Assembly: GCA_008632985.1 (NCBI GenBank)
Contig: QPGO01000045.1
Span: forward strand, 310,001-374,000
Direction of reading: 5' to 3'
Source of the DNA: Psammoneis japonica
Taxonomy: Eukaryota
Length of the DNA: 64,000 bases
In this document: in pieces, positions 24,671-48,072 of the stretch
Layout: each line of letters opens with the position of its first letter
Position numbering within the stretch: the stretch's first letter is position 1
The notes under the pieces: generated by a model
What the model saw: only the letters and a program-made list of their open reading frames with translations
What the model was told of the DNA's origin: nothing
The model's database searches: none
Program-made: the position numbers and the translations under genes

Positions 24671-27600
24671 GACTATCCGTCGGATCGGTGTTGTCGATGT
24701 TATGGCTAACATGGTCGTATCTCTGTCGTCGACAAAGCCGGCAAGCTCCTGTTGAAGTAGTGGCGTTGCTGAAGGGCATGATTGAAGATGGGGAGCTGGC
24801 ACTACCGCATGGGCTCACCTGTGGTACGAAGCATCTACTTGATGCCGGATGGGCAGAAGCGGATTTTGAAGAAATGGCGGTTGCTTGTGCAATCTTTTTT
24901 GATGGTCTAGTGCAGCTTTTTTCATTTTCTTTGCAGTCTTTGGATCCTGTTGCTTTTTGGCTCGGCTAGGGTTTTGTGATGGTGCAAGATGAAATCTTGA
25001 ATCAGAATTCGGCAGATTCGTTCAGTGGGGCGTATTGACGTGCTGCTTTTTCAAATCAGGCAACGTAAAACTATCTGTTTGATTGTGGTGCTACCTTGCT
25101 GGCAGTCACTTTCTTTTTGCTGGCCGCCACCACTTCTACTGGAAGCAGAATATTCCGAATCATGTGACAGTCGCGTCAAGAGCATTCGGCGAGCGTTGCG
25201 TTGCGTTGCGAAGACCAAATGCTAAAAGAATCTAAGATTGGAGCCCGAAAACGAAAAGACACTGCTGACGCCGCCGGGGAGCAAAGAGCGCAACGACATA
25301 GCGTCTCGGGAGGAGCCGACGTGACCAATTGTTGCTACATCGACAAGTTCGTAAGGCTGGAGAGTCAATCACAACGGTTGCGTATCCAAGACTAGCAGTT
25401 GGGGAAAGCATGTGGCAGTTGCAAGTTCTGAAAGTCCTGCTCGACAAATTGCGTCTAATAGTGATAGTAGCAAGTCTCCAGCACGCGAAAAGAAGCGCAT
25501 CAAGCCAGAGGTTGTCTCATCCGGTAGAAAGGACACCACAATGACTGCATCTGCGATGTTGGCTGAAACTGAACACGGAATTTTCGACGGCGAGTCTGAT
25601 TTTGTCCTGACTCCACCCAATGGGAAGCGAATCGTTTCTGTTCACCCGGACTTAGCCAATCAAATGAAGGAGGTAACAACTTCGCATCGTATGCTGCACT
25701 ACTATCCTGACATTCTATTTTGCCTCACTCGAAAAGTGTTATAAATGTATCTCCCTCATTTCAGCATCAGAAAGATGTGATCAAATCCATGTGGGACAAC
25801 GTTTACTGTGACTTTTCTACGATGTCCGACGATGAAGCCTATGTGGCAAAGGTAGACGGCAATGAAACTTTGGTTTATTCCAACCAATCGCTTGGCGGAT
25901 GTATCCTTGCCAAGTGTGGGACTTGGCAAGTCGCTCCAAGCGATTGTGTTGCTTCATACCTTACTTCATCACCCTTCTTTGAATGTGTCGGGTATCCCTC
26001 TGTTTCGTACGGCGCTTCTCGTTGTCCCAACCAATACCGTACGTATCATACAATCCGGTCGGGTTCTTGCTTTGCTGTGTACGATCTCCGTTCTGACACG
26101 TTGTCTTATTCTTGATCTTGGCGCCACTAGTTGATAAACTGGGAGAGCGAATTCCGAAAGTGGGTAGCGTCTCTCCGGCCCGACACCAACACTTTTAATC
26201 TGAATGACGTAAACAGTTCTTCTCGGGGTAAAACGATCAAAGCTTGTAGCGACAGAGGTGGCGTTCTTCTTATGACTGTGCATGCGTCGTTTTGCTTCTC
26301 TCAAGAAGATCTCCAGGTTGATTTAATTTCTCTATTTGTGAGTAGTTGTTTCAATTACTCTGAAATAGAGAAATTCCCAGGAAGGGGTGAAATTGAATAA
26401 AAAAATTACGAGGAGTCCATGAGCCTTTCTCTGATTATAATCGATTTATTCTCTGCAACACAGCACAGAGCCCTGTCGCCTATCGAGCGCGTGATTTTTT
26501 GAGTTAGTGCTCAAATAAAAACAACAAACAATTGCGACTGCAGCGAAGCCGCAGCCGCTGATAGCTTTAGCGACAGACAAAGCCTGAGAATCCGGCTAGT
26601 GTCGAGCCCTTGCTGTGGTTGTCGTTGTCATCTTGCTGTCGCAAGAGAAAGATCCGAAGAGCATCCACGGATTCCTCGGAGCGGAGAGAAATTTCAAATT
26701 TCGCACCGCTGTTGGTCGTGCTTGCCTCATAGTTCCGTTGAGCAATTTTCATCACCATGGCGACATACTACTGCCTTCACATGAACCGGAAAGGGGAATT
26801 TACCTTTGACGATGATGTCCCCCCTCGTCCCTTGTTCAGGAACCCAGAGACCAGCGCCGTCTATCGCATCGACGACCTTGGAGGCGATGCCGTCTCTGTT
26901 GGTGATAACGGAGACCCTCACGCCGACGACGGTGTGCCCATTGCGCAACCGGAAGATCGCCTTCAAGCTTTTATGGACTATGGCGCGAGTAGCAGGGTAG
27001 ACCTTCAGGAGGCCCGGGCCACACTCATCCCAGAACCTGAATTACTAGCTTCCGGCTCCGATCCCAATCGGCTTGACAATGTCCTAGCCAGGGCCCGTGA
27101 AGGGGGGATTGTCTTTCGAAAGAAAACGAAGGAAATCCAGGCCTTGTTGAAGCTAATCTCATCGGATTCTACTGGCGCTACGAAATCACAAACGTCTTCT
27201 AAGAGAGGCCCCAAGCCTGGGAACAAAGCATTCCTAACAAACCATGGCTTGGAAAGAGTGTTCATTGCACGTAAGCAGCTGCGAGTTCGAAATGATGGCG
27301 AGAAGGCCAAGTACGGGGAGCTTGAAGAGAAGATTGTTTCCTATTGTCAAGGAGACTATGGCCAGGAGTCCAACGGCCTTTCAGGGCCACAAAAGATTCT
27401 CTACAAAGCTATGTTTCAGGAAGTGACAGGTCGGAACAGGGAAACGGGCATGCGAAAGCTACTTCCAGACCATTTATTGGTCATGGCGCAGTTGGCTTGC
27501 CAGCTTGACATGGATGCCAAGGAAGACAACCCCGACGCTTACCCAGTGTTTGCTCGGGACTTTGCGCGCTATTTGATCTTTGTAATCTTTGACCTTGGGG

Positions 27601-28471
27601 AACACAAAATCAGCAAACGGTATAGGACCCTTTGAAGGAAATGAACCTCCCACAACCCGAAGGAAACCCCAAGGACGATACATGGGCGACGAGGAGGTTT
27701 GCGATGTGCTCCTTTATTGGCGCCATCATTGACAAAGGGCCACTAATGCAACATGTTGTGGATATGGCTGTGGACAAAGCCATAGCTACTAGCCCCGCCA
27801 AACCCAACCGCGGTGGTGACTACCCTCCCGGTGTTCTGCCAAAGAATTTTCATCGGTGGCTAGAGAATTCTTATGCTGCAGATGATTTTGCTGGGCTACA
27901 AGGTACTCTTACTCCTATTATGGCTGAGGTTCACGAATTTACAACGATCCAAGTTCCCAGTGAGCGTCACGGTAGTGTTAGACTCACGCTAAAGCCTTGC
28001 GACGAGTTGCGAGTGAAAGATGGCGACAAGTACTACACAGCCCGCGAATCAGACAACCAATTCGTCACGGCGCATGAATCGGTGGAAGAGATCAACAACT
28101 TAGTGCCTTGTGGTGCCACGAACGGTCACGACAAGGACGTCCCGCTTCTCGCGGCTGCTTCGAGTGAAACAATCACAAGTGTCGAAGCCGAGGATACGAA
28201 AGCTACCGACGACGGCGACTCACAGTTCCTTCACAGCATCGAGGGACTTTTGGCACGCCGGCGTAACGGTGAGTTTGACGATCCCACACTGATGTGTCAG
28301 CTGCAGATGCTGTTGGAAGATGGTTGCACACCCAGCCACAAAGAGAACCGCGGCTTTGGTTCCGCCATCGATGGGCTCACAGTAACACCGAGAGGGTTCG
28401 AGCATTCTATTCTATATGCTGAAAAGCGAGCTGACTGCCCTAAGCAGGTGTCCAAGTATTTGCGAGATCAC
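24572..28471 (+). repeat. Large tandem unit 1 (3900 bp; one copy of the 581-bp segment at 25918-26498)
   Basis: Starts GTGGTGTTTCCAAGTCGAG, which recurs at 28472, 34696 and 40346. Confidence 0.95.
25541..26280 (+). pseudogene. ATRX/RAD54L2-like SNF2 ATPase N-terminal fragment (repeated in each unit)
   Basis: Spliced reading LANQMKE|HQKDVIKSMWDN...GGCILA/GLGKSLQ (motif I, frameshifted)...TALLVVPTNT|LINWESEFRKW...GGVLLM. Introns lie at about 25673-25764 and 26039-26130. The fragment ends before the DExH motif. Confidence 0.8.
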
Positions 28472-28609
28472 GTGGTGTTTCCAAGTCGAGTAAAAAAAAG
28501 CAGTGCCGACGAAGATGTCGGTGGTGCATCATCTCAAATGTTTGGTATTCTACTCTTGTTTATCAGTCTCGACTATCCGTCGGATCGGTGTTGTCGATGT
28601 TATGGCTAA
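26757..28609 (+). pseudogene. 5' part of the kinase gene, truncated before the kinase domain and fused to a transporter-derived tail (unit 1)
   Basis: Matches 44275-45989 and continues YLRDHV-VFPSRVKKSSADEDVGGASSQMFGILLLFISL. There is a 1-bp homopolymer frameshift near 27632. Confidence 0.75.
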
Positions 28610-31600
28610 CATGGTCGTATCTCTGTCGTCGACAAAGCCGGCAAGCTCCTGTTGAAGTAGTGGCGTTGCTGAAGGGCATGATTGAAGATGGGGAGCTGGC
28701 ACTACCGCATGGGCTCACCTGTGGTACGAAGCATCTACTTGATGCCGGATGGGCAGAAGCGGATTTTGAAGAAATGGCGGTTGCTTGTGCAATCTTTTTT
28801 GATGGTCTAGTGCAGCTTTTTTCATTTTCTTTGCAGTCTTTGGATCCTGTTGCTTTTTGGCTCGGCTAGGGTTTTGTGATGGTGCAAGATGAAATCTTGA
28901 ATCAGAATTCGGCAGATTCGTTCAGTGGGGCGTATTGACGTGCTGCTTTTTCAAATCAGGCAACGTAAAACTATCTGTTTGATTGTGGTGCTACCTTGCT
29001 GGCAGTCACTTTCTTTTTGCTGGCCGCCACCACTTCTACTGGAAGCAGAATATTCCGAATCATGTGACAGTCGCGTCAAGAGCATTCGGCGAGCGTTGCG
29101 TTGCGTTGCGAAGACCAAATGCTAAAAGAATCTAAGATTGGAGCCCGAAAACGAAAAGACACTGCTGACGCCGCCGGGGAGCAAAGAGCGCAACGACATA
29201 GCGTCTCGGGAGGAGTCCGACGTGACCAATTGTTGCTACATCGACAAGTTCGTAAGGCTGGAGAGTCAATCACAACGGTTGCGTATCCAAGACTAGCAGT
29301 TGGGGAAAGCATGTGGCAGTTGCAAGTTCTGAAAGTCCTGCTCGACAAATTGCGTCTAATAGTGATAGTAGCAAGTCTCCAGCACGCGAAAAGAAGCGCA
29401 TCAAGCCAGAGGTTGTCTCATCCGTAGAAAGGACACCACAATGACTGCATCTGCGATGTTGGCTGAAACTGAACACGGAATTTTCGACGGCGAGTCTGAT
29501 TTTGTCCTGACTCCACCCAATGGGAAGCGAATCGTTTCTGTTCACCCGGACTTAGCCAATCAAATGAAGGAGGTAACAACTTCGCATCGTATGCTGCACT
29601 GCTATCCTGACATTCTATTTTGCCTCACTCGAAAAGTGTTATAAATGTATCTCCCTCATTTCAGCATCAGAAAGATGTGATCAAATCCATGTGGGACAAC
29701 GTTTACTGTGACTTTTCTACGATGTCCGACGATGAAGCCTATGTGGCAAAGGTAGACGGCAATGAAACTTTGGTTTATTCCAACCAATCGCTTGGCGGAT
29801 GTATCCTTGCCAAGTGTGGGACTTGGCAAGTCGCTCCAAGCGATTGTGTTGCTTCATACCTTACTTCATCACCCTTCTTTGAATGTGTCGGGTATCCCTC
29901 TGTTTCGTACGGCGCTTCTCGTTGTCCCAACCAATACCGTACGTATCATACAATCCGGTCGGGTTCTTGCTTTGCAGTGTACGATCTCCGTTCTGACACG
30001 TTGTCTTATTCTTGATCTTGGCGCCACTAGTTGATAAACTGGGAGAGCGAATTCCGAAAGTGGGTAGCGTCTCTCCGGCCCGACACCAACACTTTTAATC
30101 TGAATGACGTAAACAGTTCTTCTCGGGGTAAAACGATCAAAGCTTGTAGCGACAGAGGTGGCGTTCTTCTTATGACTGTGCATGCGTCGTTTTGCTTCTC
30201 TCAAGAAGATCTCCAGGTTGATTTAATTTCTCTATTTGTGAGTAGTTGTTTCAATTACTCTGAAATAGAGAAATTCCCAGGAAGGGGTGAAATTGAATAA
30301 ATAAATTACGAGGAGTCCATGAGCCTTTCTCTGATTATAATCGATTTATTCTCTGCAACACAGCACAGAGCCCTGTCGCCTATCGAGCGCGTGATTTTGG
30401 GACTTGGCAAGTCGCTCCAAGCGATTGTGTTGCTTCATACCTTACTTCATCACCCTTCTTTGAATGTGTCGGGTATCCCTCTGTTTCGTACGGCGCTTCT
30501 CGTTGTCCCAACCAATGCCGCACGCATCATACAATCCGGTCGGGTTCTTGCTTTGCTGTGTACGATCTCCGTTCTGACACGTTGTCTTATTCTTGATCTT
30601 GGCGCCACCAGTTGATAAACTGGGAGAGCGAATTCCGAAAGTGGGTAGCGTCTCTCCGGCCCGACACCAACACTTTTAATCTGAATGACGCAAACAGTTC
30701 TTCTCGGGGTAAAACGATCAAAGCTTGTAGCGACAGAGGTGGCGTTCTTCTTGTGACTGTGCATGCGTCGTTTTGCTTCTCTCAAGAAGATCTCCAGGTT
30801 GATTTAATTTCTCTATTTGTGAGCAGTTGTTTCAATTACTCTGAAATAGAGAAATTCCCAGGAAGGGGTGAAATTGAACAAATAAATTGCGAGGAGTCCA
30901 TGAGCCTTTCTCTGATTGTAATCGATTTGTTCTCTGCAACACAGCACAGAGCCCTGTCGCCTGTCGAGCGCGTGATTTGGGACTTGGCAAGTCGCTCCAA
31001 GCGATTGTGTTGCTTCATACCTTGCTTCATCACCCTTCTTTGAATGTGTCGGGCATCCCTCTGTTTCGTACGGCGCTTCTCGTTGTCCCAACCAATGCCG
31101 CACGCATCACACAATCCGGTTGGGTTCTTGCTTTGCTGTGTGCGATCTCCGTTCTGACACGTTGTCTCATTCTTGATCTTGGCGCCACTGGTTGATAAAC
31201 TGGGAGAGCGAATTCCGAAAGTGGGTGGCGTCTCTCCGGCCCGACACCAACACTTTTAATCTGAATGACGTGAACAGTTCTTCTCGGGGTAAAACGATCA
31301 AAGCTTGTAGCGACAGAGGTGGCGTTCTTCTCATGACTGTGCATGCGTCGTTTTGCTTCTCTCAAGAAGATCTCCAGGTTGATTTAATTTCTCTGTTTGT
31401 GAGCAGTTGTTTCAATTGCCCTGAAATGGAGAAATCCCCAGGAAGGGGTGAAATTGAATGAACAAACCATGAGGAGTCCATGAGCCTTTCTCTGATTGTG
31501 ATCGATTTGTTCTCTGCAACACAGCACAGAGCCCTGTCGCCTGTCGAGCGCGTGATTTTGGGACTTGGCAAGTCGCTCCAAGCGATTGTGTTGCTTCACA

Positions 31601-34600
31601 CCTTACTTCATCACCCTTCTTTGAATGTGTCGGGCATCCCTCTGTTTCGCACGGCGCTTCTCGTTGTCCCAACCAATGCCGTGCGCATCATGCAATCCGG
31701 TCGGGTTCTTGCTTTGCTGTGTACGATCTCCGTTCTGACACGTTGTCTTGTTCTTGATCTTGGCGCCACCAGTTGATAAACTGGGAGAGCGAATTCCGAA
31801 AGTGGGCAGCGTCTCTCCGGCCCGACACCAACACTTTTAATCTGAATGACGCAAACAGTTCTTCTCGGGGTAAAACGATCAAAGCTTGTAGCGACAGAGG
31901 TGGCGTTCTTCTCACGACTGTGCATGCGTCATTTTGCTTCTCTCAAGAAGATCTCCAGGTTGATTTAATTTCTCTGTTTGTGAGCAGTTGTTTCAATTGC
32001 TCTGAAACAGAGAAATTCCCAGGAAGGGGTGAAATTGAACAAACAAACCACGAGGAGTCCATGAGCCTTTCTCTGATTACAATCGATTTGTTCTCTGCAA
32101 CACAGCACAGAGCCCTGTCGCCTGTCGAGCGCGTGATTTTGGGACTTGGCAAGTCGCTCCAAGCGATTGTGTTGCTTCACACCTTGCTTCATCACCCTTC
32201 TTTGAATGTGTCGGGTGTCCCTCTGTTTCGTACGGCGCTTCTCGTTGTCCCAACCAATGCCGCACGTATCATACAATCCGGTCGGGTTCTTGCTTTGCTG
32301 TGTACGATCTCCGTTCTGACACGTTGTCTTGTTCTTGATCTTGGCGCCACTGGTTGACAAGCTGGGAGAGCGAATTCCGAAAGTGGGCAGCGTCTCTCCG
32401 GCCCGACACCAACACTTTTAATCTGAATGACGCAAACAGTTCTTCTCGGGGTAAAACGATCAAAGCTTGTAGCGACAGAGGTGGCGTTCTTCTTATGACT
32501 GTGCATGCGTCGTTTTGCTTCTCTCAAGAAGATCTCCAGGTTGATTTAATTTCTCTATTTGTGAGTAGTTGTTTCAATTACTCTGAAATAGAGAAATTCC
32601 CAGGAAGGGGTGAAATTGAATAAATAAATTACGAGGAGTCCATGAGCCTTTCTCTGATTATAATCGATTTATTCTCTGCAACACAGCACAGAGCCCTGTC
32701 GCCTATCGAGCGCGTGATTTTTTGAGTTAGTGCTCAAATAAAAACAACAAACAATTGCGACTGCAGCGAAGCCGCAGCCGCTGATAGCTTTAGCGACAGA
32801 CAAAGCCTGAGAATCCGGCTAGTGTCGAGCCCTTGCTGTGGTTGTCGTTGTCATCTTGCTGTCGCAAGAGAAAGATCCGAAGAGCATCCACGGATTCCTC
32901 GGAGCGGAGAGAAATTTCAAATTTCGCACCGCTGTTGGTCGTGCTTGCCTCATAGTTCCGTTGAGCAATTTTCATCACCATGGCGACATACTACTGCCTT
33001 CACATGAACCGGAAAGGGGAATTTACCTTTGACGATGATGTCCCCCCTCGTCCCTTGTTCAGGAACCCAGAGACCAGCGCCGTCTATCGCATCGACGACC
33101 TTGGAGGCGATGCCGTCTCTGTTGGTGATAACGGAGACCCTCACGCCGACGACGGTGTGCCCATTGCGCAACCGGAAGATCGCCTTCAAGCTTTTATGGA
33201 CTATGGCGCGAGTAGCAGGGTAGACCTTCAGGAGGCCCGGGCCACACTCATCCCAGAACCTGAATTACTAGCTTCCGGCTCCGATCCCAATCGGCTTGAC
33301 AATGTCCTAGCCAGGGCCCGTGAAGGGGGGATTGTCTTTCGAAAGAAAACGAAGGAAATCCAGGCCTTGTTGAAGCTAATCTCATCGGATTCTACTGGCG
33401 CTACGAAATCACAAACGTCTTCTAAGAGAGGCCCCAAGCCTGGGAACAAAGCATTCCTAACAAACCATGGCTTGGAAAGAGTGTTCATTGCACGTAAGCA
33501 GCTGCGAGTTCGAAATGATGGCGAGAAGGCCAAGTACGGGGAGCTTGAAGAGAAGATTGTTTCCTATTGTCAAGGAGACTATGGCCAGGAGTCCAACGGC
33601 CTTTCAGGGCCACAAAAGATTCTCTACAAAGCTATGTTTCAGGAAGTGACAGGTCGGAACAGGGAAACGGGCATGCGAAAGCTACTTCCAGACCATTTAT
33701 TGGTCATGGCGCAGTTGGCTTGCCAGCTTGACATGGATGCCAAGGAAGACAACCCCGACGCTTACCCAGTGTTTGCTCGGGACTTTGCGCGCTATTTGAT
33801 CTTTGTAATCTTTGACCTTGGGGAACACAAAATCAGCAAACGGTATAGGACCCTTTTGAAGGAAATGAACCTCCCACAACCCGAAGGAAACCCCAAGGAC
33901 GATACATGGGCGACGAGGAGGTTTGCGATGTGCTCCTTTATTGGCGCCATCATTGACAAAGGGCCACTAATGCAACATGTTGTGGATATGGCTGTGGACA
34001 AAGCCATAGCTACTAGCCCGCCAAACCCAACCGCGGTGGTGACTACCCTCCCGGTGTTCTGCCAAAGAATTTTCATCGGTGGCTAGAGAATTCTTATGCT
34101 GCAGATGATTTTGCTGGGCTACAAGGTACTCTTACTCCTATTATGGCTGAGGTTCACGAATTTACAACGATCCAAGTTCCCAGTGAGCGTCACGGTAGTG
34201 TTAGACTCACGCTAAAGCCTTGCGACGAGTTGCGAGTGAAAGATGGCGACAAGTACTACACAGCCCGCGAATCAGACAACCAATTCGTCACGGGCGCATG
34301 AATCGGTGGAAGAGATCAACAACTTAGTGCCTTGTGGTGCCACGAACGGTCACGACAAGGACGTCCCGCTTCTCGCGGCTGCTTCGAGTGAAACAATCAC
34401 AAGTGTCGAAGCCGAGGATACGAAAGCTACCGACGACGGCGACTCACAGTTCCTTCACAGCATCGAGGGACTTTTGGCACGCCGGCGTAACGGTGAGTTT
34501 GACGATCCCACACTGATGTGTCAGCTGCAGATGCTGTTGGAAGATGGTTGCACACCCAGCCACAAAGAGAACCGCGGCTTTGGTTCCGCCATCGATGGGC

Positions 34601-34695
34601 TCACAGTAACACCGAGAGGGTTCGAGCATTCTATTCTATATGCTGAAAAGCGAGCTGACTGCCCTAAGCAGGTGTCCAAGTATTTGCGAGATCAC
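28472..34695 (+). repeat. Large tandem unit 2 (6224 bp = 3900 + 4x581)
   Basis: Near-identical to unit 1 apart from the internal array. Confidence 0.95.
29818..32721 (+). repeat. 581-bp tandem array, 5 copies
   Basis: GGGACTTGGCAAGTCGCTCC at 29818, 30399, 30979, 31560 and 32141. Confidence 0.95.
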
Positions 34696-34833
34696 GTGGT
34701 GTTTCCAAGTCGAGTAAAAAAAAGCAGTGCCGACGAAGATGTCGGTGGTGCATCATCTCAAATGTTTGGTATTCTACTCTTGTTTATCAGTCTCGACTAT
34801 CCGTCGGATCGGTGTTGTCGATGTTATGGCTAA
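32980..34833 (+). pseudogene. Truncated chimeric kinase 5' copy (unit 2)
   Basis: Same sequence as the other units, with 1-bp indels near 34020 and 34292. Confidence 0.75.
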
Positions 34834-37800
34834 CATGGTCGTATCTCTGTCGTCGACAAAGCCGGCAAGCTCCTGTTGAAGTAGTGGCGTTGCTGAAGGG
34901 CATGATTGAAGATGGGGAGCTGGCACTACCGCATGGGCTCACCTGTGGTACGAAGCATCTACTTGATGCCGGATGGGCAGAAGCGGATTTTGAAGAAATG
35001 GCGGTTGCTTGTGCAATCTTTTTTGATGGTCTAGTGCAGCTTTTTTCATTTTCTTTGCAGTCTTTGGATCCTGTTGCTTTTTTGGCTCGGCTAGGGTTTT
35101 GTGATGGTGCAAGATGAAATCTTGAATCAGAATTCGGCAGATTCGTTCAGTGGGGCGTATTGACGTGCTGCTTTTTCAAATCAGGCAACGTAAAACTATC
35201 TGTTTGATTGTGGTGCTACCTTGCTGGCAGTCACTTTCTTTTTGCTGGCCGCCACCACTTCTACTGGAAGCAGAATATTCCGAATCATGTGACAGTCGCG
35301 TCAAGAGCATTCGGCGAGCGTTGCGTTGCGTTGCGTTGCGAAGACCAAATGCTAAAAGAATCTAAGATTGGAGCCCGAAAACGAAAAGACACTGCTGACG
35401 CCGCCGGGGAGCAAAGAGCGCAACGACATAGCGTCTCGGGAGGAGTCCGACGTGACCAATTGTTGCTACATCGACAAGTTCGTAAGGCTGGAGAGTCAAT
35501 CACAACGGTTGCGTATCCAAGACTAGCAGTTGGGGAAAGCATGTGGCAGTTGCAAGTTCTGAAAGTCCTGCTCGACAAATTGCGTCTAATAGTGATAGTA
35601 GCAAGTCTCCAGCACGCGAAAAGAAGCGCATCAAGCCAGAGGTTGTCTCATCCGGTAGAAAGGACACCACAATGACTGCATCTGCGATGTTGGCTGAAAC
35701 TGAACACGGAATTTTCGACGGCGAGTCTGATTTTGTCCTGACTCCACCCAATGGGAAGCGAATCGTTTCTGTTCACCCGGACTTAGCCAATCAAATGAAG
35801 GAGGTAACAACTTCGCATCGTATGCTGCACTGCTATCCTGACATTCTATTTTGCCTCACTCGAAAAGTGTTATAAATGTATCTCCCTCATTTCAGCATCA
35901 GAAAGATGTGATCAAATCCATGTGGGACAACGTTTACTGTGACTTTTCTACGATGTCCGACGATGAAGCCTATGTGGCAAAGGTAGACGGCAATGAAACT
36001 TTGGTTTATTCCAACCAATCGCTTGGCGGATGTATCCTTGCCAAGTGTGGGACTTGGCAAGTCGCTCCAAGCGATTGTGTTGCTTCATACCTTACTTCAT
36101 CACCCTTCTTTGAATGTGTCGGGTATCCCTCTGTTTCGTACGGCGCTTCTCGTTGTCCCAACCAATACCGTACGTATCATACAATCCGGTCGGGTTCTTG
36201 CTTTGCTGTGTACGATCTCCGTTCTGACACGTTGTCTTATTCTTGATCTTGGCGCCACTAGTTGATAAACTGGGAGAGCGAATTCCGAAAGTGGGTAGCG
36301 TCTCTCCGGCCCGACACCAACACTTTTAATCTGAATGACGTAAACAGTTCTTCTCGGGGTAAAACGATCAAAGCTTGTAGCGACAGAGGTGGCGTTCTTC
36401 TTATGACTGTGCATGCGTCGTTTTGCTTCTCTCAAGAAGATCTCCAGGTTGATTTAATTTCTCTATTTGTGAGTAGTTGTTTCAATTACTCTGAAATAGA
36501 GAAATTCCCAGGAAGGGGTGAAATTGAATAAATAAATTACGAGGAGTCCATGAGCCTTTCTCTGATTATAATCGATTTATTCTCTGCAACACAGCACAGA
36601 GCCCTGTCGCCTATCGAGCGCGTGATTTTGGGACTTGGCAAGTCGCTCCAAGCGATTGTGTTGCTTCATACCTTACTTCATCACCCTTCTTTGAATGTGT
36701 CGGGTGTCCCTCTGTTTCGTACGGCGCTTCTCGTTGTCCCAACCAATGCCGTGCGCATCGTGCAATCCGGTCGGGTTCTTGCTTTGCTGTGTGCGATCTC
36801 CGTTCTGACACGTTGTCTTGTTCTTGATCTTGGCGCCACCAGTTGATAAACTGGGAGAGCGAATTCCGAAAGTGGGTAGCGTCTCTCCGGCCCGACACCA
36901 ACACTTTTAATCTGAATGACGCAAACAGTTCTTCTCGGGGTAAAACGATCAAAGCTTGTAGCGACAGAGGTGGCGTTCTTCTTGTGACTGTGCATGCGTC
37001 GTTTTGCTTCTCTCAAGAAGATCTCCAGGTTGATTTAATTTCTCTGTTTGTGAGCAGTTGTTTCAATTACCCTGAAATAGAGAAATCCCCAGGAAGGGGT
37101 GAAATTGAGTGAACAAATTGCGAGGAGTCCATGAGCCTTTCTCTGATTGTAGTCGATTTGTTCTCTGCAACACAGCACAGAGCCCTGTCGCCTGTCGAGC
37201 GCGTGATTTTGGGACTTGGCAAGTCGCTCCAAGCGATTGTGTTGCTTCGTGCCTCACTTCATCACCCTTCTTTGAATGTGTCGGGTGTCCCTCTGTTTCG
37301 CACGGCGCTTCTCGTTGTCCCAACCAATGCCGCACGCATCATACAATCCGGTCGGGTTCTTGCTTTGCTGTGTGCGATCTCCGTTCTGACACGTTGTCTT
37401 GTTCTTGATCTTGGCGCCACTAGTTGACAAACTGGGAGAGCGAATTCCGAAAGTGGGCAGCGTCTCTCCGGCCCGACACCAACACTTTTAATCTGAATGA
37501 CGCAAACAGTTCTTCTCGGGGTAAAACGATCAAAGCTTGTAGCGACAGAGGTGGCGTTCTTCTTATGACTGTGCATGCGTCGTTTTGCTTCTCTCAAGAA
37601 GATCTCCAGGTTGATTTAATTTCTCCATTTGTGAGTGGTTGTTTCAACCACCCTGAAATAGAGAAATTCCCAGGAAGGGGTGAAATTGAACAAATAAATT
37701 ACGAGGAGTCCATGAGCCTTTCTCTGATTGTGGTCGATTTGTTCTCTGCAACACAGCACAGAGCCCTGTCGCCCATCGAGCGCGTGATTTTGGGACTTGG

Positions 37801-40345
37801 CAAGTCGCTCCAAGCGATTGTGTTGCTTCACACCTTGCTTCATCACCCTTCTTTGAATGTGTCGGGTGTCCCTCTGTTTCGCACGGCGCTTCTCGTTGTC
37901 CCAACCAATGCCGCACGCATCACACAATCCGGTCGGGTTCTTGCTTTGCTGTGTGCGATCTCCGTTCTGACACGTTGTCTTGTTCTTGATCTTGGCGCCA
38001 CCAGTTGATAAACTGGGAGAGCGAATTCCGAAAGTGGGCAGCGTCTCTCCGGCCCGACACCAACACTTTTAATCTGAATGACGTAAACAGTTCTTCTCGG
38101 GGTAAAACGATCAAAGCTTGTAGCGACAGAGGTGGCGTTCTTCTTATGACTGTGCATGCGTCGTTTTGCTTCTCTCAAGAAGATCTCCAGGTTGATTTAA
38201 TTTCTCTATTTGTGAGTAGTTGTTTCAATTACTCTGAAATAGAGAAATTCCCAGGAAGGGGTGAAATTGAATAAATAAATTACGAGGAGTCCATGAGCCT
38301 TTCTCTGATTATAATCGATTTATTCTCTGCAACACAGCACAGAGCCCTGTCGCCTATCGAGCGCGTGATTTTTTGAGTTAGTGCTCAAATAAAAACAACA
38401 AACAATTGCGACTGCAGCGAAGCCGCAGCCGCTGATAGCTTTAGCGACAGACAAAGCCTGAGAATCCGGCTAGTGTCGAGCCCTTGCTGTGGTTGTCGTT
38501 GTCATCTTGCTGTCGCAAGAGAAAGATCCGAAGAGCATCCACGGATTCCTCGGAGCGGAGAGAAATTTCAAATTTCGCACCGCTGTTGGTCGTGCTTGCC
38601 TCATAGTTCCGTTGAGCAATTTTCATCACCATGGCGACATACTACTGCCTTCACATGAACCGGAAAGGGGAATTTACCTTTGACGATGATGTCCCCCCTC
38701 GTCCCTTGTTCAGGAACCAGAGACCAGCGCCGTCTATCGCATCGACGACCTTGGAGGCGATGCCGTCTCTGTTGGTGATAACGGAGACCCTCACGCCGAC
38801 GACGGTGTGCCCATTGCGCAACCGGAAGATCGCCTTCAAGCTTTTATGGACTATGGCGCGAGTAGCAGGGTAGACCTTCAGGAGGCCCGGGCCACACTCA
38901 TCCCAGAACCTGAATTACTAGCTTCCGGCTCCGATCCCAATCGGCTTGACAATGTCCTAGCCAGGGCCCGTGAAGGGGGGATTGTCTTTCGAAAGAAAAC
39001 GAAGGAAATCCAGGCCTTGTTGAAGCTAATCTCATCGGATTCTACTGGCGCTACGAAATCACAAACGTCTTCTAAGAGAGGCCCCAAGCCTGGGAACAAA
39101 GCATTCCTAACAAACCATGGCTTGGAAAGAGTGTTCATTGCACGTAAGCAGCTGCGAGTTCGAAATGATGGCGAGAAGGCCAAGTACGGGGAGCTTGAAG
39201 AGAAGATTGTTTCCTATTGTCAAGGAGACTATGGCCAGGAGTCCAACGGCCTTTCAGGGCCACAAAAGATTCTCTACAAAGCTATGTTTCAGGAAGTGAC
39301 AGGTCGGAACAGGGAAACGGGCATGCGAAAGCTACTTCCAGACCATTTATTGGTCATGGCGCAGTTGGCTTGCCAGCTTGACATGGATGCCAAGGAAGAC
39401 AACCCCGACGCTTACCCAGTGTTTGCTCGGGACTTTGCGCGCTATTTGATCTTTGTAATCTTTGACCTTGGGGAACACAAAATCAGCAAACGGTATAGGA
39501 CCCTTTTGAAGGAAATGAACCTCCCACAACCCGAAGGAAACCCCAAGGACGATACATGGGCGACGCGGAGGTTTGCGATGTGCTCCTTTATTGGCGCCAT
39601 CATTGACAAAGGGCCACTAATGCAACATGTTGTGGATATGGCTGTGGACAAAGCCATAGCTACTAGCCCCGCCAAACCCAACCGCGGTGGTGACTACCCT
39701 CCCGGTGTTCTGCCAAAGAATTTTCATCGGTGGCTAGAGAATTCTTATGCTGCAGATGATTTTGCTGGGCTACAAGGTACTCTTACTCCTATTATGGCTG
39801 AGGTTCACGAATTTACAACGATCCAAGTTCCCAGTGAGCGTCACGGTAGTGTTAGACTCACGCTAAAGCCTTGCGACGAGTTGCGAGTGAAAGATGGCGA
39901 CAAGTACTACACAGCCCGCGAATCAGACAACCAATTCGTCACGGCGCATGAATCGGTGGAAGAGATCAACAACTTAGTGCCTTGTGGTGCCACGAACGGT
40001 CACGACAAGGACGTCCCGCTTCTCGCGGCTGCTTCGAGTGAAACAATCACAAGTGTCGAAGCCGAGGATACGAAAGCTACCGACGACGGCGACTCACAGT
40101 TCCTTCACAGCATCGAGGGACTTTTGGCACGCAGGCGTAACGGTGAGTTTGACGATCCCACACTGATGTGTCAGCTGCAGATGCTGTTGGAAGATGGTTG
40201 CACACCCAGCCACAAAGAGAACCGCGGCTTTGGTTCCGCCATCGATGGGCTCACAGTAACACCGAGAGGGTTCGAGCATTCTATTCTATATGCTGAAAAG
40301 CGAGCTGACTGCCCTAAGCAGGTGTCCAAGTATTTGCGAGATCAC
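34696..40345 (+). repeat. Large tandem unit 3 (5650 bp)
   Basis: Near-identical repeat carrying a 4-copy internal array. Confidence 0.95.
36049..38372 (+). repeat. 581-bp tandem array, 4 copies
   Basis: Monomers start at 36049, 36630, 37211 and 37792. Confidence 0.95.
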
Positions 40346-40483
40346 GTGGTGTTTCCAAGTCGAGTAAAAAAAAGCAGTGCCGACGAAGATGTCGGTGGTG
40401 CATCATCTCAAATGTTTGGTATTCTACTCTTGTTTATCAGTCTCGACTATCCGTCGGATCGGTGTTGTCGATGTTATGGCTAA
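38631..40483 (+). pseudogene. Truncated chimeric kinase 5' copy (unit 3)
   Basis: ORF 38807-40483 is open for 558 aa. A 1-bp deletion near 38717 separates it from the ATG at 38631. Confidence 0.75.
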
Positions 40484-43400
40484 CATGGTCGTATCTCTGT
40501 CGTCGACAAAGCCGGCAAGCTCCTGTTGAAGTAGTGGCGTTGCTGAAGGGCATGATTGAAGATGGGGAGCTGGCACTACCGCATGGGCTCACCTGTGGTA
40601 CGAAGCATCTACTTGATGCCGGATGGGCAGAAGCGGATTTTGAAGAAATGGCGGTTGCTTGTGCAATCTTTTTTGATGGTCTAGTGCAGCTTTTTTCATT
40701 TTCTTTGCAGTCTTTGGATCCTGTTGCTTTTTGGCTCGGCTAGGGTTTTGTGATGGTGCAAGATGAAATCTTGAATCAGAATTCGGCAGATTCGTTCAGT
40801 GGGGCGTATTGACGTGCTGCTTTTTCAAATCAGGCAACGTAAAACTATCTGTTTGATTGTGGTGCTACCTTGCTGGCAGTCACTTTCTTTTTGCTGGCCG
40901 CCACCACTTCTACTGGAAGCAGAATATTCCGAATCATGTGACAGTCGCGTCAAGAGCATTCGGCGAGCGTTGCGTTGCGTTGCGAAGACCAAATGCTAAA
41001 AGAATCTAAGATTGGAGCCCGAAAACGAAAAGACACTGCTGACGCCGCCGGGGAGCAAAGAGCGCAACGACATAGCGTCTCGGGAGGAGTCCGACGTGAC
41101 CAATTGTTGCTACATCGACAAGTTCGTAAGGCTGGAGAGTCAATCACAACGGTTGCGTATCCAAGACTAGCAGTTGGGGAAAGCATGTGGCAGTTGCAAG
41201 TTCTGAAAGTCCTGCTCGACAAATTGCGTCTAATAGTGATAGTAGCAAGTCTCCAGCACGCGAAAAGAAGCGCATCAAGCCAGAGGTTGTCTCATCCGGT
41301 AGAAAGGACACCACAATGACTGCATCTGCGATGTTGGCTGAAACTGAACACGGAATTTTCGACGGCGAGTCTGATTTTGTCCTGACTCCACCCAATGGGA
41401 AGCGAATCGTTTCTGTTCACCCGGACTTAGCCAATCAAATGAAGGAGGTAACAACTTCGCATCGTATGCTGCACTGCTATCCTGACATTCTATTTTGCCT
41501 CACTCGAAAAGTGTTATAAATGTATCTCCCTCATTTCAGCATCAGAAAGATGTGATCAAATCCATGTGGGACAACGTTTACTGTGACTTTTCTACGATGT
41601 CCGACGATGAAGCCTATGTGGCAAAGGTAGACGGCAATGAAACTTTGGTTTATTCCAACCAATCGCTTGGCGGATGTATCCTTGCCAAGTGTGGGACTTG
41701 GCAAGTCGCTCCAAGCGATTGTGTTGCTTCATACCTTACTTCATCACCCTTCTTTGAATGTGTCGGGTATCCCTCTGTTTCGTACGGCGCTTCTCGTTGT
41801 CCCAACCAATACCGTACGTATCATACAATCCGGTCGGGTTCTTGCTTTGCTGTGTACGATCTCCGTTCTGACACGTTGTCTTATTCTTGATCTTGGCGCC
41901 ACTAGTTGATAAACTGGGAGAGCGAATTCCGAAAGTGGGTAGCGTCTCTCCGGCCCGACACCAACACTTTTAATCTGAATGACGTAAACAGTTCTTCTCG
42001 GGGTAAAACGATCAAAGCTTGTAGCGACAGAGGTGGCGTTCTTCTTATGACTGTGCATGCGTCGTTTTGCTTCTCTCAAGAAGATCTCCAGGTTGATTTA
42101 ATTTCTCTATTTGTGAGTAGTTGTTTCAATTACTCTGAAATAGAGAAATTCCCAGGAAGGGGTGAAATTGAATAAATAAATTACGAGGAGTCCATGAGCC
42201 TTTCTCTGATTATAATCGATTTATTCTCTGCAACACAGCACAGAGCCCTGTCGCCTATCGAGCGCGTGATTTTGGGACTTGGCAAGTCGCTCCAAGCGAT
42301 TGTGTTGCTTCATACCTTACTTCATCACCCTTCTTTGAATGTGTCGGGTATCCCTCTGTTTCGCACGGCGCTTCTCGTTGTCCCAACCAATGCCGCACGC
42401 ATCACACAATCTGGTCGGGTTCTTGCTTTGCTGTGTGCGATCTCCGTTCTGACACGTTGTCTTATTCTTGATCTTGGCGCCACCAGTTGATAAACTGGGA
42501 GAGCGAATTCCGAAAGTGGGCAGCGTCTCTCCGGCCCGACACCAACACTTTTAATCTGAATGACGCAAACAGTTCTTCTCGGGGTAAAACGATCAAAGCT
42601 TGTAGCGACAGAGGTGGCGTTCTTCTTATGACTGTGCATGCGTCGTTTTGCTTCTCTCAAGAAGATCTCCAGGTTGATTTAATTTCTCTGTTTGTGAGCA
42701 GTTGTTTCAATTACCCTGAAACAGAGAAATCCCCAGGAAGGGGTGAAATTGAACAAATAAATTGCGAGGAGTCCATGAGCCTTTCTCTGATTACAATCGA
42801 TTTGTTCTCTGCAACACAGCACAGAGCCCTGTCGCCCATCGAGCGCATGATTTTGGGACTTGGCAAGTCGCTCCAAGCGATTGTGTTGCTTCATGCCTTG
42901 CTTCATCACCCTTCTTTGAATGTGTCGGGTGTCCCTCTGTTTCGTGCGGCGCTTCTCGTTGTCCCAACCAATGCCGCACGCATCGTGCAATCCGGTCGGG
43001 TTCTTGCTTTGCTGTGTGCGATCTCCGTTCTGACACGTTGTCTTGTTCTTGATCTTGGCGCCACCAGTTGACAAACTGGGAGAGCGAATTCCGAAAGTGG
43101 GTGGCGTCTCTCCGGCCCGACACCAACACTTTTAATCTGAATGACGCAAACAGTTCTTCTCGGGGTAAAACGATCAAAGCTTGTAGCGACAGAGGTGGCG
43201 TTCTTCTTATGACTGTGCATGCGTCGTTTTGCTTCTCTCAAGAAGATCTCCAGGTTGATTTAATTTCTCTGTTTGTGAGCAGTTGTTTCAATTACTCTGA
43301 AACAGAGAAATTCCCAGGAAGGGGTGAAATTGAACAAATAAATTACGAGGAGTCCATGAGCCTTTCTCTGATTATAATCGATTTGTTCTCTGCAACACAG

Positions 43401-45989
43401 CACAGAGCCCTGTCGCCTGTCGAGCGCGTGATTTTGGGACTTGGCAAGTCGCTCCAAGCGATTGTGTTGCTTCACACCTTGCTTCATCACCCTTCTTTGA
43501 ATGTGTCGGGTGTCCCTCTGTTTCGCACGGCGCTTCTCGTTGTCCCAACCAATGCCGCACGTATCACACAATCCGGTCGGGTTCTTGCTTTGCTGTGTGC
43601 GATCTCCGTTCTGACACGTTGTCTTGTTCTTGATCTTGGCGCCACCAGTTGACAAACTGGGAGAGCGAATTCCGAAAGTGGGCAGCGTCTCTCCGGCCCG
43701 ACACCAACACTTTTAATCTGAATGACGTAAACAGTTCTTCTCGGGGTAAAACGATCAAAGCTTGTAGCGACAGAGGTGGCGTTCTTCTTATGACTGTGCA
43801 TGCGTCGTTTTGCTTCTCTCAAGAAGATCTCCAGGTTGATTTAATTTCTCTATTTGTGAGTAGTTGTTTCAATTACTCTGAAATAGAGAAATTCCCAGGA
43901 AGGGGTGAAATTGAATAAATAAATTACGAGGAGTCCATGAGCCTTTCTCTGATTATAATCGATTTATTCTCTGCAACACAGCACAGAGCCCTGTCGCCTA
44001 TCGAGCGCGTGATTTTTTGAGTTAGTGCTCAAATAAAAACAACAAACAATTGCGACTGCAGCGAAGCCGCAGCCGCTGATAGCTTTAGCGACAGACAAAG
44101 CCTGAGAATCCGGCTAGTGTCGAGCCCTTGCTGTGGTTGTCGTTGTCATCTTGCTGTCGCAAGAGAAAGATCCGAAGAGCATCCACGGATTCCTCGGAGC
44201 GGAGAGAAATTTCAAATTTCGCACCGCTGTTGGTCGTGCTTGCCTCATAGTTCCGTTGAGCAATTTTCATCACCATGGCGACATACTACTGCCTTCACAT
44301 GAACCGGAAAGGGGAATTTACCTTTGACGATGATGTCCCCCCTCGTCCCTTGTTCAGGAACCCAGAGACCAGCGCCGTCTATCGCATCGACGACCTTGGA
44401 GGCGATGCCGTCTCTGTTGGTGATAACGGAGACCCTCACGCCGACGACGGTGTGCCCATTGCGCAACCGGAAGATCGCCTTCAAGCTTTTATGGACTATG
44501 GCGCGAGTAGCAGGGTAGACCTTCAGGAGGCCCGGGCCACACTCATCCCAGAACCTGAATTACTAGCTTCCGGCTCCGATCCCAATCGGCTTGACAATGT
44601 CCTAGCCAGGGCCCGTGAAGGGGGGATTGTCTTTCGAAAGAAAACGAAGGAAATCCAGGCCTTGTTGAAGCTAATCTCATCGGATTCTACTGGCGCTACG
44701 AAATCACAAACGTCTTCTAAGAGAGGCCCCAAGCCTGGGAACAAAGCATTCCTAACAAACCATGGCTTGGAAAGAGTGTTCATTGCACGTAAGCAGCTGC
44801 GAGTTCGAAATGATGGCGAGAAGGCCAAGTACGGGGAGCTTGAAGAGAAGATTGTTTCCTATTGTCAAGGAGACTATGGCCAGGAGTCCAACGGCCTTTC
44901 AGGGCCACAAAAGATTCTCTACAAAGCTATGTTTCAGGAAGTGACAGGTCGGAACAGGGAAACGGGCATGCGAAAGCTACTTCCAGACCATTTATTGGTC
45001 ATGGCGCAGTTGGCTTGCCAGCTTGACATGGATGCCAAGGAAGACAACCCCGACGCTTACCCAGTGTTTGCTCGGGACTTTGCGCGCTATTTGATCTTTG
45101 TAATCTTTGACCTTGGGGAACACAAAATCAGCAAACGGTATAGGACCCTTTTGAAGGAAATGAACCTCCCACAACCCGAAGGAAACCCCAAGGACGATAC
45201 ATGGGCGACGAGGAGGTTTGCGATGTGCTCCTTTATTGGCGCCATCATTGACAAAGGGCCACTAATGCAACATGTTGTGGATATGGCTGTGGACAAAGCC
45301 ATAGCTACTAGCCCCGCCAAACCCAACCGCGGTGGTGACTACCCTCCCGGTGTTCTGCCAAAGAATTTTCATCGGTGGCTAGAGAATTCTTATGCTGCAG
45401 ATGATTTTGCTGGGCTACAAGGTACTCTTACTCCTATTATGGCTGAGGTTCACGAATTTACAACGATCCAAGTTCCCAGTGAGCGTCACGGTAGTGTTAG
45501 ACTCACGCTAAAGCCTTGCGACGAGTTGCGAGTGAAAGATGGCGACAAGTACTACACAGCCCGCGAATCAGACAACCAATTCGTCACGGCGCATGAATCG
45601 GTGGAAGAGATCAACAACTTAGTGCTGTGGTGCACGAACGGTCACGACAAGGACGTCCCGCTTCTCGCGGCTGCTTCGAGTGAAACAATACAAGTGTCGA
45701 AGCCGAGGATACGAAAGCTACCGACGACGGCGACTCACAGTTCCTTCACAGCATCGAGGGACTTTTGGCACGCCGGCGTAACGGTGAGTTTGACGATCCC
45801 ACACTGATGTGTCAGCTGCAGATGCTGTTGGAAGATGGTTGCACACCCAGCCACAAAGAGAACCGCGGCTTTGGTTCCGCCATCGATGGGCTCACAGTAA
45901 CACCGAGAGGGTTCGAGCATTCTATTCTATATGCTGAAAAGCGAGCTGACTGCCCTAAGCAGGTGTCCAAGTATTTGCGAGATCACGTG
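40346..45989 (+). repeat. Large tandem unit 4 (about 5640 bp), running into the unique 3' part of the kinase
   Basis: Ends GATCACGTG|ATTCCTCTG instead of GATCACGTG|GTGTTTCC. Confidence 0.95.
41693..44016 (+). repeat. 581-bp tandem array, 4 copies
   Basis: Monomers start at 41693, 42274, 42855 and 43436. Confidence 0.95.

Positions 45990-48040: not shown

Positions 48041-48072
<32 letters not shown>

What the first reader, a model, noticed from the sequence alone, without database searches (positions are those of the whole stretch)
30517..43683. Mutated zone has reproducible, asymmetric margins inside each array
Seen: the first and last TA changes are about 30517/32433 (array 29818-32721), 36706/38039 (array 36049-38372) and 42364/43683 (array 41693-44016). 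About 660-700 bp at the left and 290-335 bp at the right are therefore spared in all three arrays, whatever the copy number. Inference: targeting has a defined geometry, such as a chromatin domain nucleated in the array core, protection by flanking promoter or transcription, or a pairing requirement. Homogenisation of the edges by unequal exchange or conversion between large units is an alternative.
Basis: partly seen in the sequence, partly recalled or inferred. Interest (0 to 1): 0.85.

Follow-up and report, generated by a model that had tools for sequence, protein, structure and literature searches.

The report
Sharp-edged TpA hypermutation inside tandem arrays
In a diatom, the inner copies of a 581-base tandem repeat have had two thirds of their TA steps rewritten to CA or TG, while the first copy and the tail of the last copy stay untouched; this points to an undescribed DNA-level mutator confined to the stretch between two genes.

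Summary
Four 3.9-kb large units (A-D) each hold a 581-bp unit, in 1, 5, 4 and 4 copies. In the arrays 166 of 192 changes are TA->CA or TA->TG. TA is the ancestral state: no CG double hits were seen where 27.7 were expected. Hits fill 166 of 249 TA sites in the core and 0 of 141 in the margins (p=3e-47). The margins are the whole first unit, the first ~50-120 bp of unit 2, and the last 165-333 bp. Contigs of an accurate DNA run fit the assembly's mix of mutated and clean copies, so a consensus error is unlikely. C and D gained at least 37 further hits after they split, none in a margin, so the borders are maintained and not only inherited. Neutral homogenisation cannot hold them at zero. The best reading (about 0.4) is a silent, probably cytosine-methylated domain over promoter-less inner copies. 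Its left border would be the upstream pseudogene's transcription unit and its right border the downstream gene's promoter. All five G/C changes are CpG transitions inside the core, and the RNA-like contigs carry only the clean form. A homology-geometry rule remains a live rival. The mutator is unknown. Five literature searches found no description of it.

The parts
24572..45989 (+). Four tandem large units (A 24572-28471, B 28472-34695, C 34696-40345, D 40346-45989). Outside the inner arrays they are near identical.
   Evidence: The flanks differ almost only by 1-bp homopolymer indels, plus 3 isolated substitutions and one small complex indel in D.
25917..26497 (+). Single, unmutated 581-bp unit in large unit A. 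It serves as the reference state and has 30 TA dinucleotides.
29817..32721 (+). Array B, 5 units
36048..38372 (+). Array C, 4 units
41692..44016 (+). Array D, 4 units
30517..32433 (.). Mutated core of array B (1917 bp). TA hits per unit: B2 12, B3 23, B4 22, B5 10.
36706..38039 (.). Mutated core of array C (1334 bp). TA hits per unit: C2 18, C3 20, C4 12.
42364..43683 (.). Mutated core of array D (1320 bp). TA hits per unit: D2 17, D3 20, D4 12.
29817..30516 (.). Spared left margin of B (700 bp). The matching margins are 36048-36705 in C and 41692-42363 in D.
   Evidence: first units 0 of 90 TA sites hit; unit-2 cols 41 and 46 hit 0 of 6 times.
32434..32721 (.). Spared right margin of B (288 bp). 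The matching margins are 38040-38372 in C and 43684-44016 in D.
   Evidence: 0 of 36 at tail sites that are hit 61 of 84 times in inner units.
25671..25762 (+). 92-nt GT..AG intron of the upstream transcribed gene fragment (A copy)
   Evidence: a contig of run X2 skips it.
26039..26130 (+). 92-nt GT..AG intron inside the unit (cols 123-214)
   Evidence: a contig of run X2 skips it.
26398..26400 (+). TAA stop (unit cols 482-484) of the open frame that crosses the second intron. In the arrays this frame ends inside unit 1.
26757..28609 (+). Downstream orphan gene (A copy, broken there by 1-bp indels). Its ATG lies 259 bp after the unit. The longest open copy is 38690-40483 (P0001, 597 aa).
   Evidence: No Pfam family and no homologue.
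26217..32721 (.). Cold patch at unit cols 301-416, repeated in every unit (26217-26332 in A). TA sites at cols 313, 331 and 408, and col 280 just before it, are never hit.

Best explanation
SHOWN.
- The inner copies carry real DNA-level A:T->G:C transitions at TpA (TA->CA or TG).
- The hits fall on both strands and each site is hit independently.
- They reach 67% saturation. The 3' preference is TAC = TAT > TAG > TAA.
- The 3.9-kb flanks, duplicated over the same history, show 0-1 such change.

INFERRED. The mutator acts only inside a silent, probably cytosine-methylated chromatin domain. This domain forms over the promoter-less inner copies.
- Left border: the upstream transcribed pseudogene fragment. 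Its frame stops at array position 482-484 in unit 1, and its 3' end and termination zone would reach about 50-120 bp into unit 2. Fading read-through would explain the gradual rise of hits.
- Right border: the promoter of the downstream gene, whose ATG lies 259 bp past the array. This would explain the abrupt stop 165-333 bp before the array end.

UNKNOWN. The chemistry is not known. The simplest options are adenine deamination at 5'-TA on duplex DNA, or oxidation of thymine at TpA to a base that pairs with G.
For: DIRECTION AND SPECIFICITY.
- 166 of 192 changes are at TA (84 T>C, 82 A>G).
- No CG doubles were seen where 27.7 were expected.
- 19 of 26 hit sites show both the CA and the TG state.
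- Other A/T positions changed 18 of 2071 times, and G/C positions 5 of 2155 times.

REAL IN DNA.
- Flank contigs of run X1 give 33-41 depth per copy.
- The clean path over cols 250-581 gives 334.4, against 9.18 predicted copies, which is 36.4 per copy. If all 14 units were clean it would be 23.9 per copy.
- A variant contig gives 117.8, against 3.39 predicted copies.

MARGINS MAINTAINED. After the C/D split, 37 of 66 at-risk site copies were hit in the zone and 0 of 80 in the margins.

DOMAIN.
- 5 of 5 G/C changes are CpG transitions, all in the zone, p=6e-4.
- T>C and A>G are balanced, with no transcription-strand bias.

GENE BORDERS.
- Stop codon at cols 482-484 and ATG 259 bp after the array.
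- Spliced RNA-like contigs over cols 1-122 and 215-278 have no other letters. No variant contig lies there.

SELECTION UNLIKELY.
- The upstream frame is shifted relative to a paralog contig.
- Six intronic TA sites are hit 0 of 18 times in first units.
Against: - No chromatin, methylation or transcript-end data were available.
- The RNA evidence comes from one sample's contigs, which drop minority forms.
- The run kinds are guessed.
- X1 may be the assembly's own sample.
- There is only one repeat family at one locus, and the three arrays share ancestry.
- The large-unit flanks are also repeated 4 times and must contain some untranscribed DNA. Yet they show 1 TA-type difference among 454 TA copies. 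Silence plus repetition alone may therefore not be sufficient.
- The left border, just past one full unit, is equally what a rule requiring an upstream copy predicts.
Confidence: 0.4

Rival explanations
1. Homology geometry. The mutator recognises a copy only if a homologous copy lies upstream (or on both sides), and it needs some tens of bp of pairing. The margins would then follow from array structure and not from the neighbouring genes.
For: The left border sits 50-120 bp after the first unit junction in all three arrays, whatever the copy number. The single unit A1 is clean.
Against: - A rule requiring partners on both sides predicts a clean last unit, but its first 260 cols are hit 33 of 39 times.
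- A rule requiring an upstream copy predicts hits in the tail, but none of 36 are seen.
- The 3.9-kb large repeats, which have far longer homology, are untouched.
Confidence: 0.2
2. Mutagenic copying. Hits are errors of a low-fidelity polymerase (WA->WG type) made when inner units are re-synthesised during array expansion or recombinational repair. The edges are never re-synthesised.
For: Hits are confined to the part of the array that can recombine out of register. A>G at TA, with a few at AA, resembles the recalled pol eta WA motif.
Against: - 67% saturation with near-absolute TA specificity is far above any recalled polymerase error rate.
- There are no same-strand runs: 81 of 163 adjacent hits lie on the same strand, against a null of 83.4 +/- 4.2.
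- The spared total (about 950-990 bp) exceeds one unit, so old versus new DNA does not fit.
Confidence: 0.13
3. Edge restoration. The whole array is hit, and gene conversion among large units, or from clean unit A, then repairs the edges.
For: The flanks are kept near identical. The right border is abrupt, like the end of a conversion tract, and it is shared by B5, C4 and D4.
Against: - Unit A can restore at most 581 bp per side, and the left margin is 658-700 bp.
- Neutral conversion among equally hit arrays cannot keep 0 of 141.
- After the C/D split, 0 of 80 margin site copies changed.
Confidence: 0.1
4. Purifying selection removes lineages with hits in the upstream gene or in the downstream promoter.
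For: The margins coincide with the gene body plus a presumed 3' end, and with the promoter.
Against: - The upstream frame looks like a frameshifted fragment present in four copies.
- Intronic TA sites (0 of 18) and sites after the stop codon are equally clean in first units.
Confidence: 0.05
5. Assembly or polishing artefact, for example base-modification miscalls in long reads or collapsed edges.
For: The locus retains 1-bp homopolymer indels typical of long-read consensus. Phasing of the units rests on reads that I did not see.
Against: - Contig depths of accurate reads fit the assembly's variant multiplicities.
- Polishing toward the majority allele would give G at col 120 (10 of 14 units), not the clean state.
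- The equally unpolished flanks lack TA changes.
Confidence: 0.05

Closest known systems
Repeat-induced point mutation (RIP) of Neurospora and other ascomycetes (recalled; only search listings were seen)
   Same: It is fast and restricted to repeats. It causes dinucleotide-specific transitions on both strands, approaching saturation. Single copies are spared. One branch depends on heterochromatin and cytosine methylation.
   Different: RIP is C:G->T:A at CpA and makes DNA AT-rich. Here the change is A:T->G:C at TpA and makes DNA GC-richer. RIP mutates both copies of any long duplication over their full length and can leak outward. Here the first unit and the 3.9-kb duplicates are clean. The host is a diatom, not a fungus.
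Immunoglobulin somatic hypermutation (AID plus pol eta; recalled)
   Same: The mutated zone has defined borders relative to a promoter and is 1-2 kb long. A>G at WA motifs is part of the spectrum.
   Different: There is no C-deamination component (5 G/C changes in 2155 positions). The specificity is for TA only, at 67% saturation. It occurs in the germline genome of a unicellular alga.
ADAR hyper-editing of long double-stranded RNA (recalled)
   Same: The change is A->G with a 5' U preference. A large fraction of sites is hit, and both strands are affected.
   Different: The changes here are in genomic DNA contigs, and the substrate is a direct repeat. ADARs are, as recalled, an animal family.
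TadA/ADAT tRNA adenosine deaminases and the base editors derived from them (recalled)
   Same: The target A is preceded by U/T and followed by C. TAC is among the best contexts here (0.46).
   Different: The natural enzymes act on a tRNA loop. Here TAT is hit as often as TAC, and no enzyme was identified.

Membership tests
RIP (Neurospora type) | C:G->T:A transitions, mostly CpA->TpA | tested here: not met
   166 of 192 changes are TA->CA/TG. TA is ancestral: 0 CG doubles against 27.7 expected, 19 of 26 sites show both states, and the clean unit keeps 28 CA, 42 TG and 33 CG.
RIP (Neurospora type) | All sufficiently long duplicated DNA is hit and single copies are spared | tested here: inconclusive
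   The single unit A1 is clean. However, the four 3.9-kb large units are also clean.
RIP (Neurospora type) | Mutation covers each repeat copy to its edges | tested here: not met
   First units are hit 0 of 90 times and last-unit tails 0 of 45 times.
RIP (Neurospora type) | RID/DIM-2 type cytosine methyltransferases; premeiotic timing | not testable with these tools
   No genome is held.
AID / pol eta hypermutation | C deamination hotspots together with A:T mutations at WA | tested here: not met
   G/C changes are 5 of 2155, all at CpG. A/T changes are almost all at TA.
AID / pol eta hypermutation | The zone starts shortly after a promoter and decays over 1-2 kb | tested here: inconclusive
   There is an abrupt border near the downstream promoter and a slow fall toward the left. 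However, the left border follows array structure and not distance.
ADAR-type hyper-editing | A->G with 5' neighbour U > A > C, G | tested here: met
   Counts by 5' neighbour are TA 166, AA 7, CA 4 and GA 7 (the GA count comes from two shared sites).
ADAR-type hyper-editing | The change is made in RNA and the genome is unchanged | tested here: not met
   Variants are present in DNA-run contigs at the expected multiplicity.
TadA/ADAT-like deaminase action | Target context U-A-C in a loop | tested here: inconclusive
   Hit rates are TAC 0.46, TAT 0.47, TAG 0.25 and TAA 0.09. Loop structure was not tested and no enzyme gene could be searched for.

The most novel reading that the evidence does not exclude
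Diatoms have a previously undescribed DNA-level editing system that rewrites TpA to CpA/TpG in silent tandem copies. It would be a GC-enriching, adenine-directed (or thymine-directed) counterpart of fungal RIP. Its field of action is a chromatin domain whose borders are set by the neighbouring transcription units. It can saturate a 1-2 kb core while kilobase-long flanking duplicates of the same age stay identical.
Probability: 0.35. Interest if true: 0.95.

Novelty: categorically new. Interest (0 to 1): 0.82.

Why it matters
If confirmed, this is the first repeat-limited hypermutation outside fungi and the first that acts on A:T pairs. It would imply an unknown enzyme, a duplex-DNA adenine deaminase or a thymine modifier with TpA specificity. 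Such an enzyme would bear on genome defence, on diatom genome evolution and on base-editing tools. The sharp margins are the most informative part. They make the targeting rule directly testable (chromatin and transcription borders against homology geometry), with arrays of different copy number as internal replicates.

Tried and rejected
DATA THAT COULD NOT BE OBTAINED.
- Whole genome: none is held. Other arrays and candidate enzyme genes therefore could not be surveyed.
- Sequencing runs: no RNA holder was listed. Three runs of one sample were offered.

COVERAGE GAP. X2 contigs leave 26388-26659 without cover. This fits two separate transcripts, but a gap in contigs is no evidence and is not used.

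NEGATIVE OR EMPTY SEARCHES.
- Metagenome scan with a 26-base TA-free stretch of the unit: 0 matches.
- Strand-run (processivity) test: negative, 81 of 163 against a null of 83.4 +/- 4.2.
- Pfam on the downstream ORF, on four exon pieces and on 21 other ORFs: nothing relevant.
- P0001 homologue search: no candidate reached E <= 0.001 among the 8000 scored.
- SNF2 identity of the upstream fragment: only two weak PDB hits, both to SNF2L2 motif I, E=0.88 and 1.1. The label is therefore tentative.
- Other, older repeats in the window: ordinary spectra, with TA-type changes 2 of 98, 1 of 21 and 6 of 46.
- Literature: searches returned nothing on A:T->G:C TpA hypermutation of repeats. I saw listings and abstract starts only and read no paper. 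One search failed on term syntax.
- Earlier findings: searches gave nothing relevant.

MODELS REJECTED.
- Classical RIP direction (CA/TG->TA). It would need CG ancestors at 19 sites with none retained.
- Integration of a mutated concatemer by one crossover. It predicts exactly 581 bp spared, and 950-990 bp are observed.
Full report
ANATOMY. Self-comparison of the window shows four tandem large units that start at 24572 (A), 28472 (B), 34696 (C) and 40346 (D) and end near 45989. Each contains a 581-bp unit. It occurs once in A (25917-26497), five times in B (29817-32721), four times in C (36048-38372) and four times in D (41692-44016). Outside these inner arrays the large units differ almost only by 1-bp homopolymer indels. 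There are also three isolated substitutions and one small complex indel in D. The organism is a diatom. An intron-free glycerol kinase ORF at 17013-18872 (-) has its best named matches (54-58% identity) in Odontella and Eucampia. No whole genome is held.

THE OBSERVATION. I aligned each array to n copies of the single unit. The margins are 700/658/672 bp on the left and 288/333/333 bp on the right.
- The unit has 30 TA dinucleotides.
- Of the 192 differences from the reference unit, 84 are T>C in TA and 82 are A>G in TA.
- Inside the zone, 166 of 249 TA sites are hit. Only 18 of 2071 other A/T positions and 5 of 2155 G/C positions changed.
- Outside the zone, 0 of 141 TA sites are hit (Fisher p=3e-47).

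DIRECTION. TA is the ancestral state.
- 19 of the 26 hit sites show both CA and TG among the units.
- No unit has CG at any of them, although 27.7 doubles would be expected if the two strands were hit independently.
- The clean unit still holds 28 CA, 42 TG and 33 CG, so it is not the saturated product of a C->T process.
A first hit destroys the TA context and blocks the second. This is what a strict 5'-T requirement for a change at A predicts.

CONTEXT AND STRAND. The 3' neighbour matters: TAC 0.46, TAT 0.47, TAG 0.25, TAA 0.09 per strand-specific opportunity. The two TTAA sites are never hit. Hits on the two strands are interleaved. 81 of 163 adjacent hits are on the same strand, against 83.4 +/- 4.2 when strand labels are shuffled within sites. 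There is thus no sign of single-strand tracts.

ARE THE CHANGES REAL? Three runs of one sample were offered, and their contigs were laid on the single-unit locus 25300-27100.
- X1 behaves as accurate genomic DNA. Its longest contig is 315 kb and it shows no splice joints here.
- I counted how often each 31-mer of the listed contigs occurs in the window. The three flank contigs (depths 158, 129.7, 138.9 for 3.85, 3.88, 3.95 copies) give 33-41 per copy.
- The contig that follows the clean path over cols 250-581 has depth 334.4 for 9.18 predicted copies, which is 36.4 per copy. If all 14 units were clean it would be 23.9 per copy.
- A variant contig with C at cols 124 and 128 has depth 117.8 for 3.39 predicted copies, which is 34.7 per copy. 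This assumes that the contig's third, unlisted difference is G at col 120.
- The mix of mutated and clean copies in the assembly therefore fits accurate reads.
- Caveats: contig depth is a mean per contig, X1 may be the assembly's own sample, and short contigs cannot show which unit sits where.
- Polishing toward the majority allele would not produce clean first units, because at col 120 the majority (10 of 14) is G.

ARE THE THREE MARGINS INDEPENDENT? They are not fully independent.
- C4 and D4 share 11 hit sites, with 2 sites hit in one only and 0 incompatible. B5 shares 7-8 with them. The chimeric last unit was probably inherited.
- Most other unit pairs have 1-6 incompatible states in 15 left-half sites, so most hits are independent events.
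- I treated C and D as unit-by-unit orthologues. On that basis 31 sites are shared, and at least 37 hits arose afterwards at 66 at-risk site copies in the zone. None arose at 80 at-risk site copies in the margins (p=8e-17).
- If some of these differences came from recombination rather than new hits, the count would fall. The flanks, over the same history, are essentially identical.
- The process is therefore fast and local, and it kept respecting the same borders.

FINE STRUCTURE.
- First units: 0 of 90.
- Second units: 0 of 6 (cols 1-60), 2 of 6 (61-100), 11 of 12 (101-140), and 47 of 90 overall.
- Middle units: 85 of 120.
- Last units: 33 of 39 up to col 260, 1 of 6 at cols 261-300, and 0 of 45 beyond.
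- At tail sites that can be hit, inner units show 61 of 84 and last units 0 of 36.
- Every unit has a cold patch at cols 301-416 (4 of 28 in inner units). The right border can therefore only be placed between col 249/294 and col 355/417.
The profile is a sawtooth, with a slow rise from the left and an abrupt stop on the right.

WHAT LIES AT THE BORDERS.
- Run X2 contains contigs that skip two 92-nt GT..AG intervals, 25671-25762 and 26039-26130. It is therefore most likely cDNA, and a plus-strand transcript runs into the unit.
- The open frame that crosses the second intron ends at a TAA at 26398-26400, which is unit cols 482-484.
- That frame carries a GLGK..LVVPTNT..NWE.EF.KW stretch. It weakly resembles SNF2 motif I (two PDB hits, E=0.88 and 1.1; otherwise recalled).
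- It is out of frame with the upstream exon. An X1 paralog contig (depth 68) has two extra bases at 25910/25912. The window copies therefore look like a frameshifted fragment of a gene that lies elsewhere.
- The downstream ORF (P0001, 597 aa in copy C) starts with an ATG 259 bp after the unit. It has no Pfam family and no homologue.
- In each array the upstream frame thus stops in unit 1. The left margin ends 150-215 bp later. The right margin covers the 425-590 bp before the downstream ATG.
- The X2 contigs over cols 1-122 and 215-278 have no other letters, and the bin depths leave no room for a variant contig there. In the DNA only 4 of 14 units have A at col 120. The clean first-unit form is therefore over-represented in that run.

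A SECOND SIGNATURE IN THE SAME ZONE. All five G/C changes (cols 140, 144, 373, 493, 575) are transitions at CpG, and all lie in the zone. That is 5 of 285 CpG copies, against 0 of 955 in the margins and flanks (p=6e-4). This is what cytosine methylation of the core would produce. A side activity of the same mutator cannot be excluded.

INTERPRETATION. The best-supported reading (about 0.4) is that the mutated zone is a silent, probably methylated chromatin domain over the promoter-less inner copies. The upstream transcription unit closes it on the left, and the downstream promoter closes it on the right. The TpA mutator acts only inside it.
- Shown: the spectrum, its direction, its saturation, its reality in DNA, the maintained borders, the coincidence with gene ends, and the CpG signal.
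- Inferred: the chromatin state, the transcript ends and the chemistry.

RIVALS.
- Homology geometry (0.2). It explains the left border well, but the last unit is half hit and the 3.9-kb repeats are clean.
- Mutagenic copying (0.13). The saturation, the specificity and the lack of strand tracts speak against it.
- Edge restoration by conversion (0.1). The left margin exceeds the 581 bp that unit A can restore, and no margin site changed after the C/D split.
- Selection (0.05). The upstream copy is a fourfold pseudogene fragment, and its intron sites are equally clean.
- Artefact (0.05).
One weakness of the best reading is that untranscribed parts of the large-unit flanks are also repeated yet clean: 1 TA-type difference among 454 TA copies.

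COMPARISON WITH KNOWN SYSTEMS. The logic resembles RIP, but the defining features fail. The base change is A:T->G:C at TpA and not C:G->T:A at CpA. Repeat edges and long duplicates are spared. The host is a diatom. The A>G at 5'-T context resembles ADAR, ADAT/TadA and the pol eta WA motif (all recalled). However, the changes are in genomic DNA, lack a C component and reach 67% of sites.

LITERATURE. Five full-text searches (listings and abstract starts only) and four look-ups of earlier scan notes found no description of such a process. Other, older repeats in this window have ordinary spectra.

VERDICT. The phenomenon is real at this locus and lies outside every known kind that I could test. 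The mechanism remains open.

Noticed in passing
25315, 25523, 26843, 27630, 27793, 28068 and the matching places in B-D: The large units differ by 1-bp homopolymer indels that break the downstream ORF differently in each copy. At 25315 the X1 and X2 contigs carry the extra T (158 of 158 and 81.9 of 81.9). These are therefore probably residual long-read consensus errors.
   Followed up: partly
25701 (A) versus 29601, 35832, 41476 (B, C, D): This is the only TA/TG difference in the flanks. It lies 216 bp upstream of the arrays, inside the first intron. A has TA and B-D have TG. The only X1 contig there has G (129.7 of 129.7). It is either an inherited hit outside the arrays or an error in copy A.
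   Followed up: partly
25604-26260: Contigs of X1 (depths 60-68) and X2 (depth 20.9) differ from the window at non-TA places, and one runs on into unlike sequence after 26276. They probably come from a paralog elsewhere, the intact parent of the upstream gene fragment. Its transcript may be spliced at unit col 360.
   Followed up: partly
38690-40483 (and copies at 26742-28609, 32965-34086, 44260-45807): A roughly 600-aa ORF, covered by RNA-like contigs, has no Pfam family. No candidate reached E <= 0.001 among the 8000 scored from a 5.8-billion-protein collection. It is an orphan gene amplified fourfold.
   Followed up: partly
Unit cols 301-416 in every unit (26217-26332 in A): There is a cold patch in the hypermutated units. 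TA sites 313 and 331 have a favoured TAC context on one strand, yet they are hit 0 of 14 times in the seven units that lie fully inside the zone (second and middle units).
   Followed up: no
Unit cols 123-124 and 482-484 in the mutated units: Hits change the intron's GT to GC in 8 of 10 mutated units. They change the TAA stop to CAA in 5 units and to TGA in 2. This creates 199-aa open frames across unit borders (for example 31758-32357, 42472-43071, 43053-43652).
   Followed up: no
22214-22531 versus 25297-25673 (inverted) and its copies: An older inverted partial copy of the left flank (82-88% identity) has an ordinary substitution spectrum.
   Followed up: partly
18047-18670 versus 18979-19596: An 83% identical direct repeat spans the end of the glycerol kinase ORF and the region before the 7tm_3 ORF. 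Its spectrum is ordinary (2 of 98 TA-type).
   Followed up: no
47950-48131: A TGG-rich microsatellite of about 61 copies lies just after the last large unit, beside a protein-kinase-like ORF (46135-46896).
   Followed up: no
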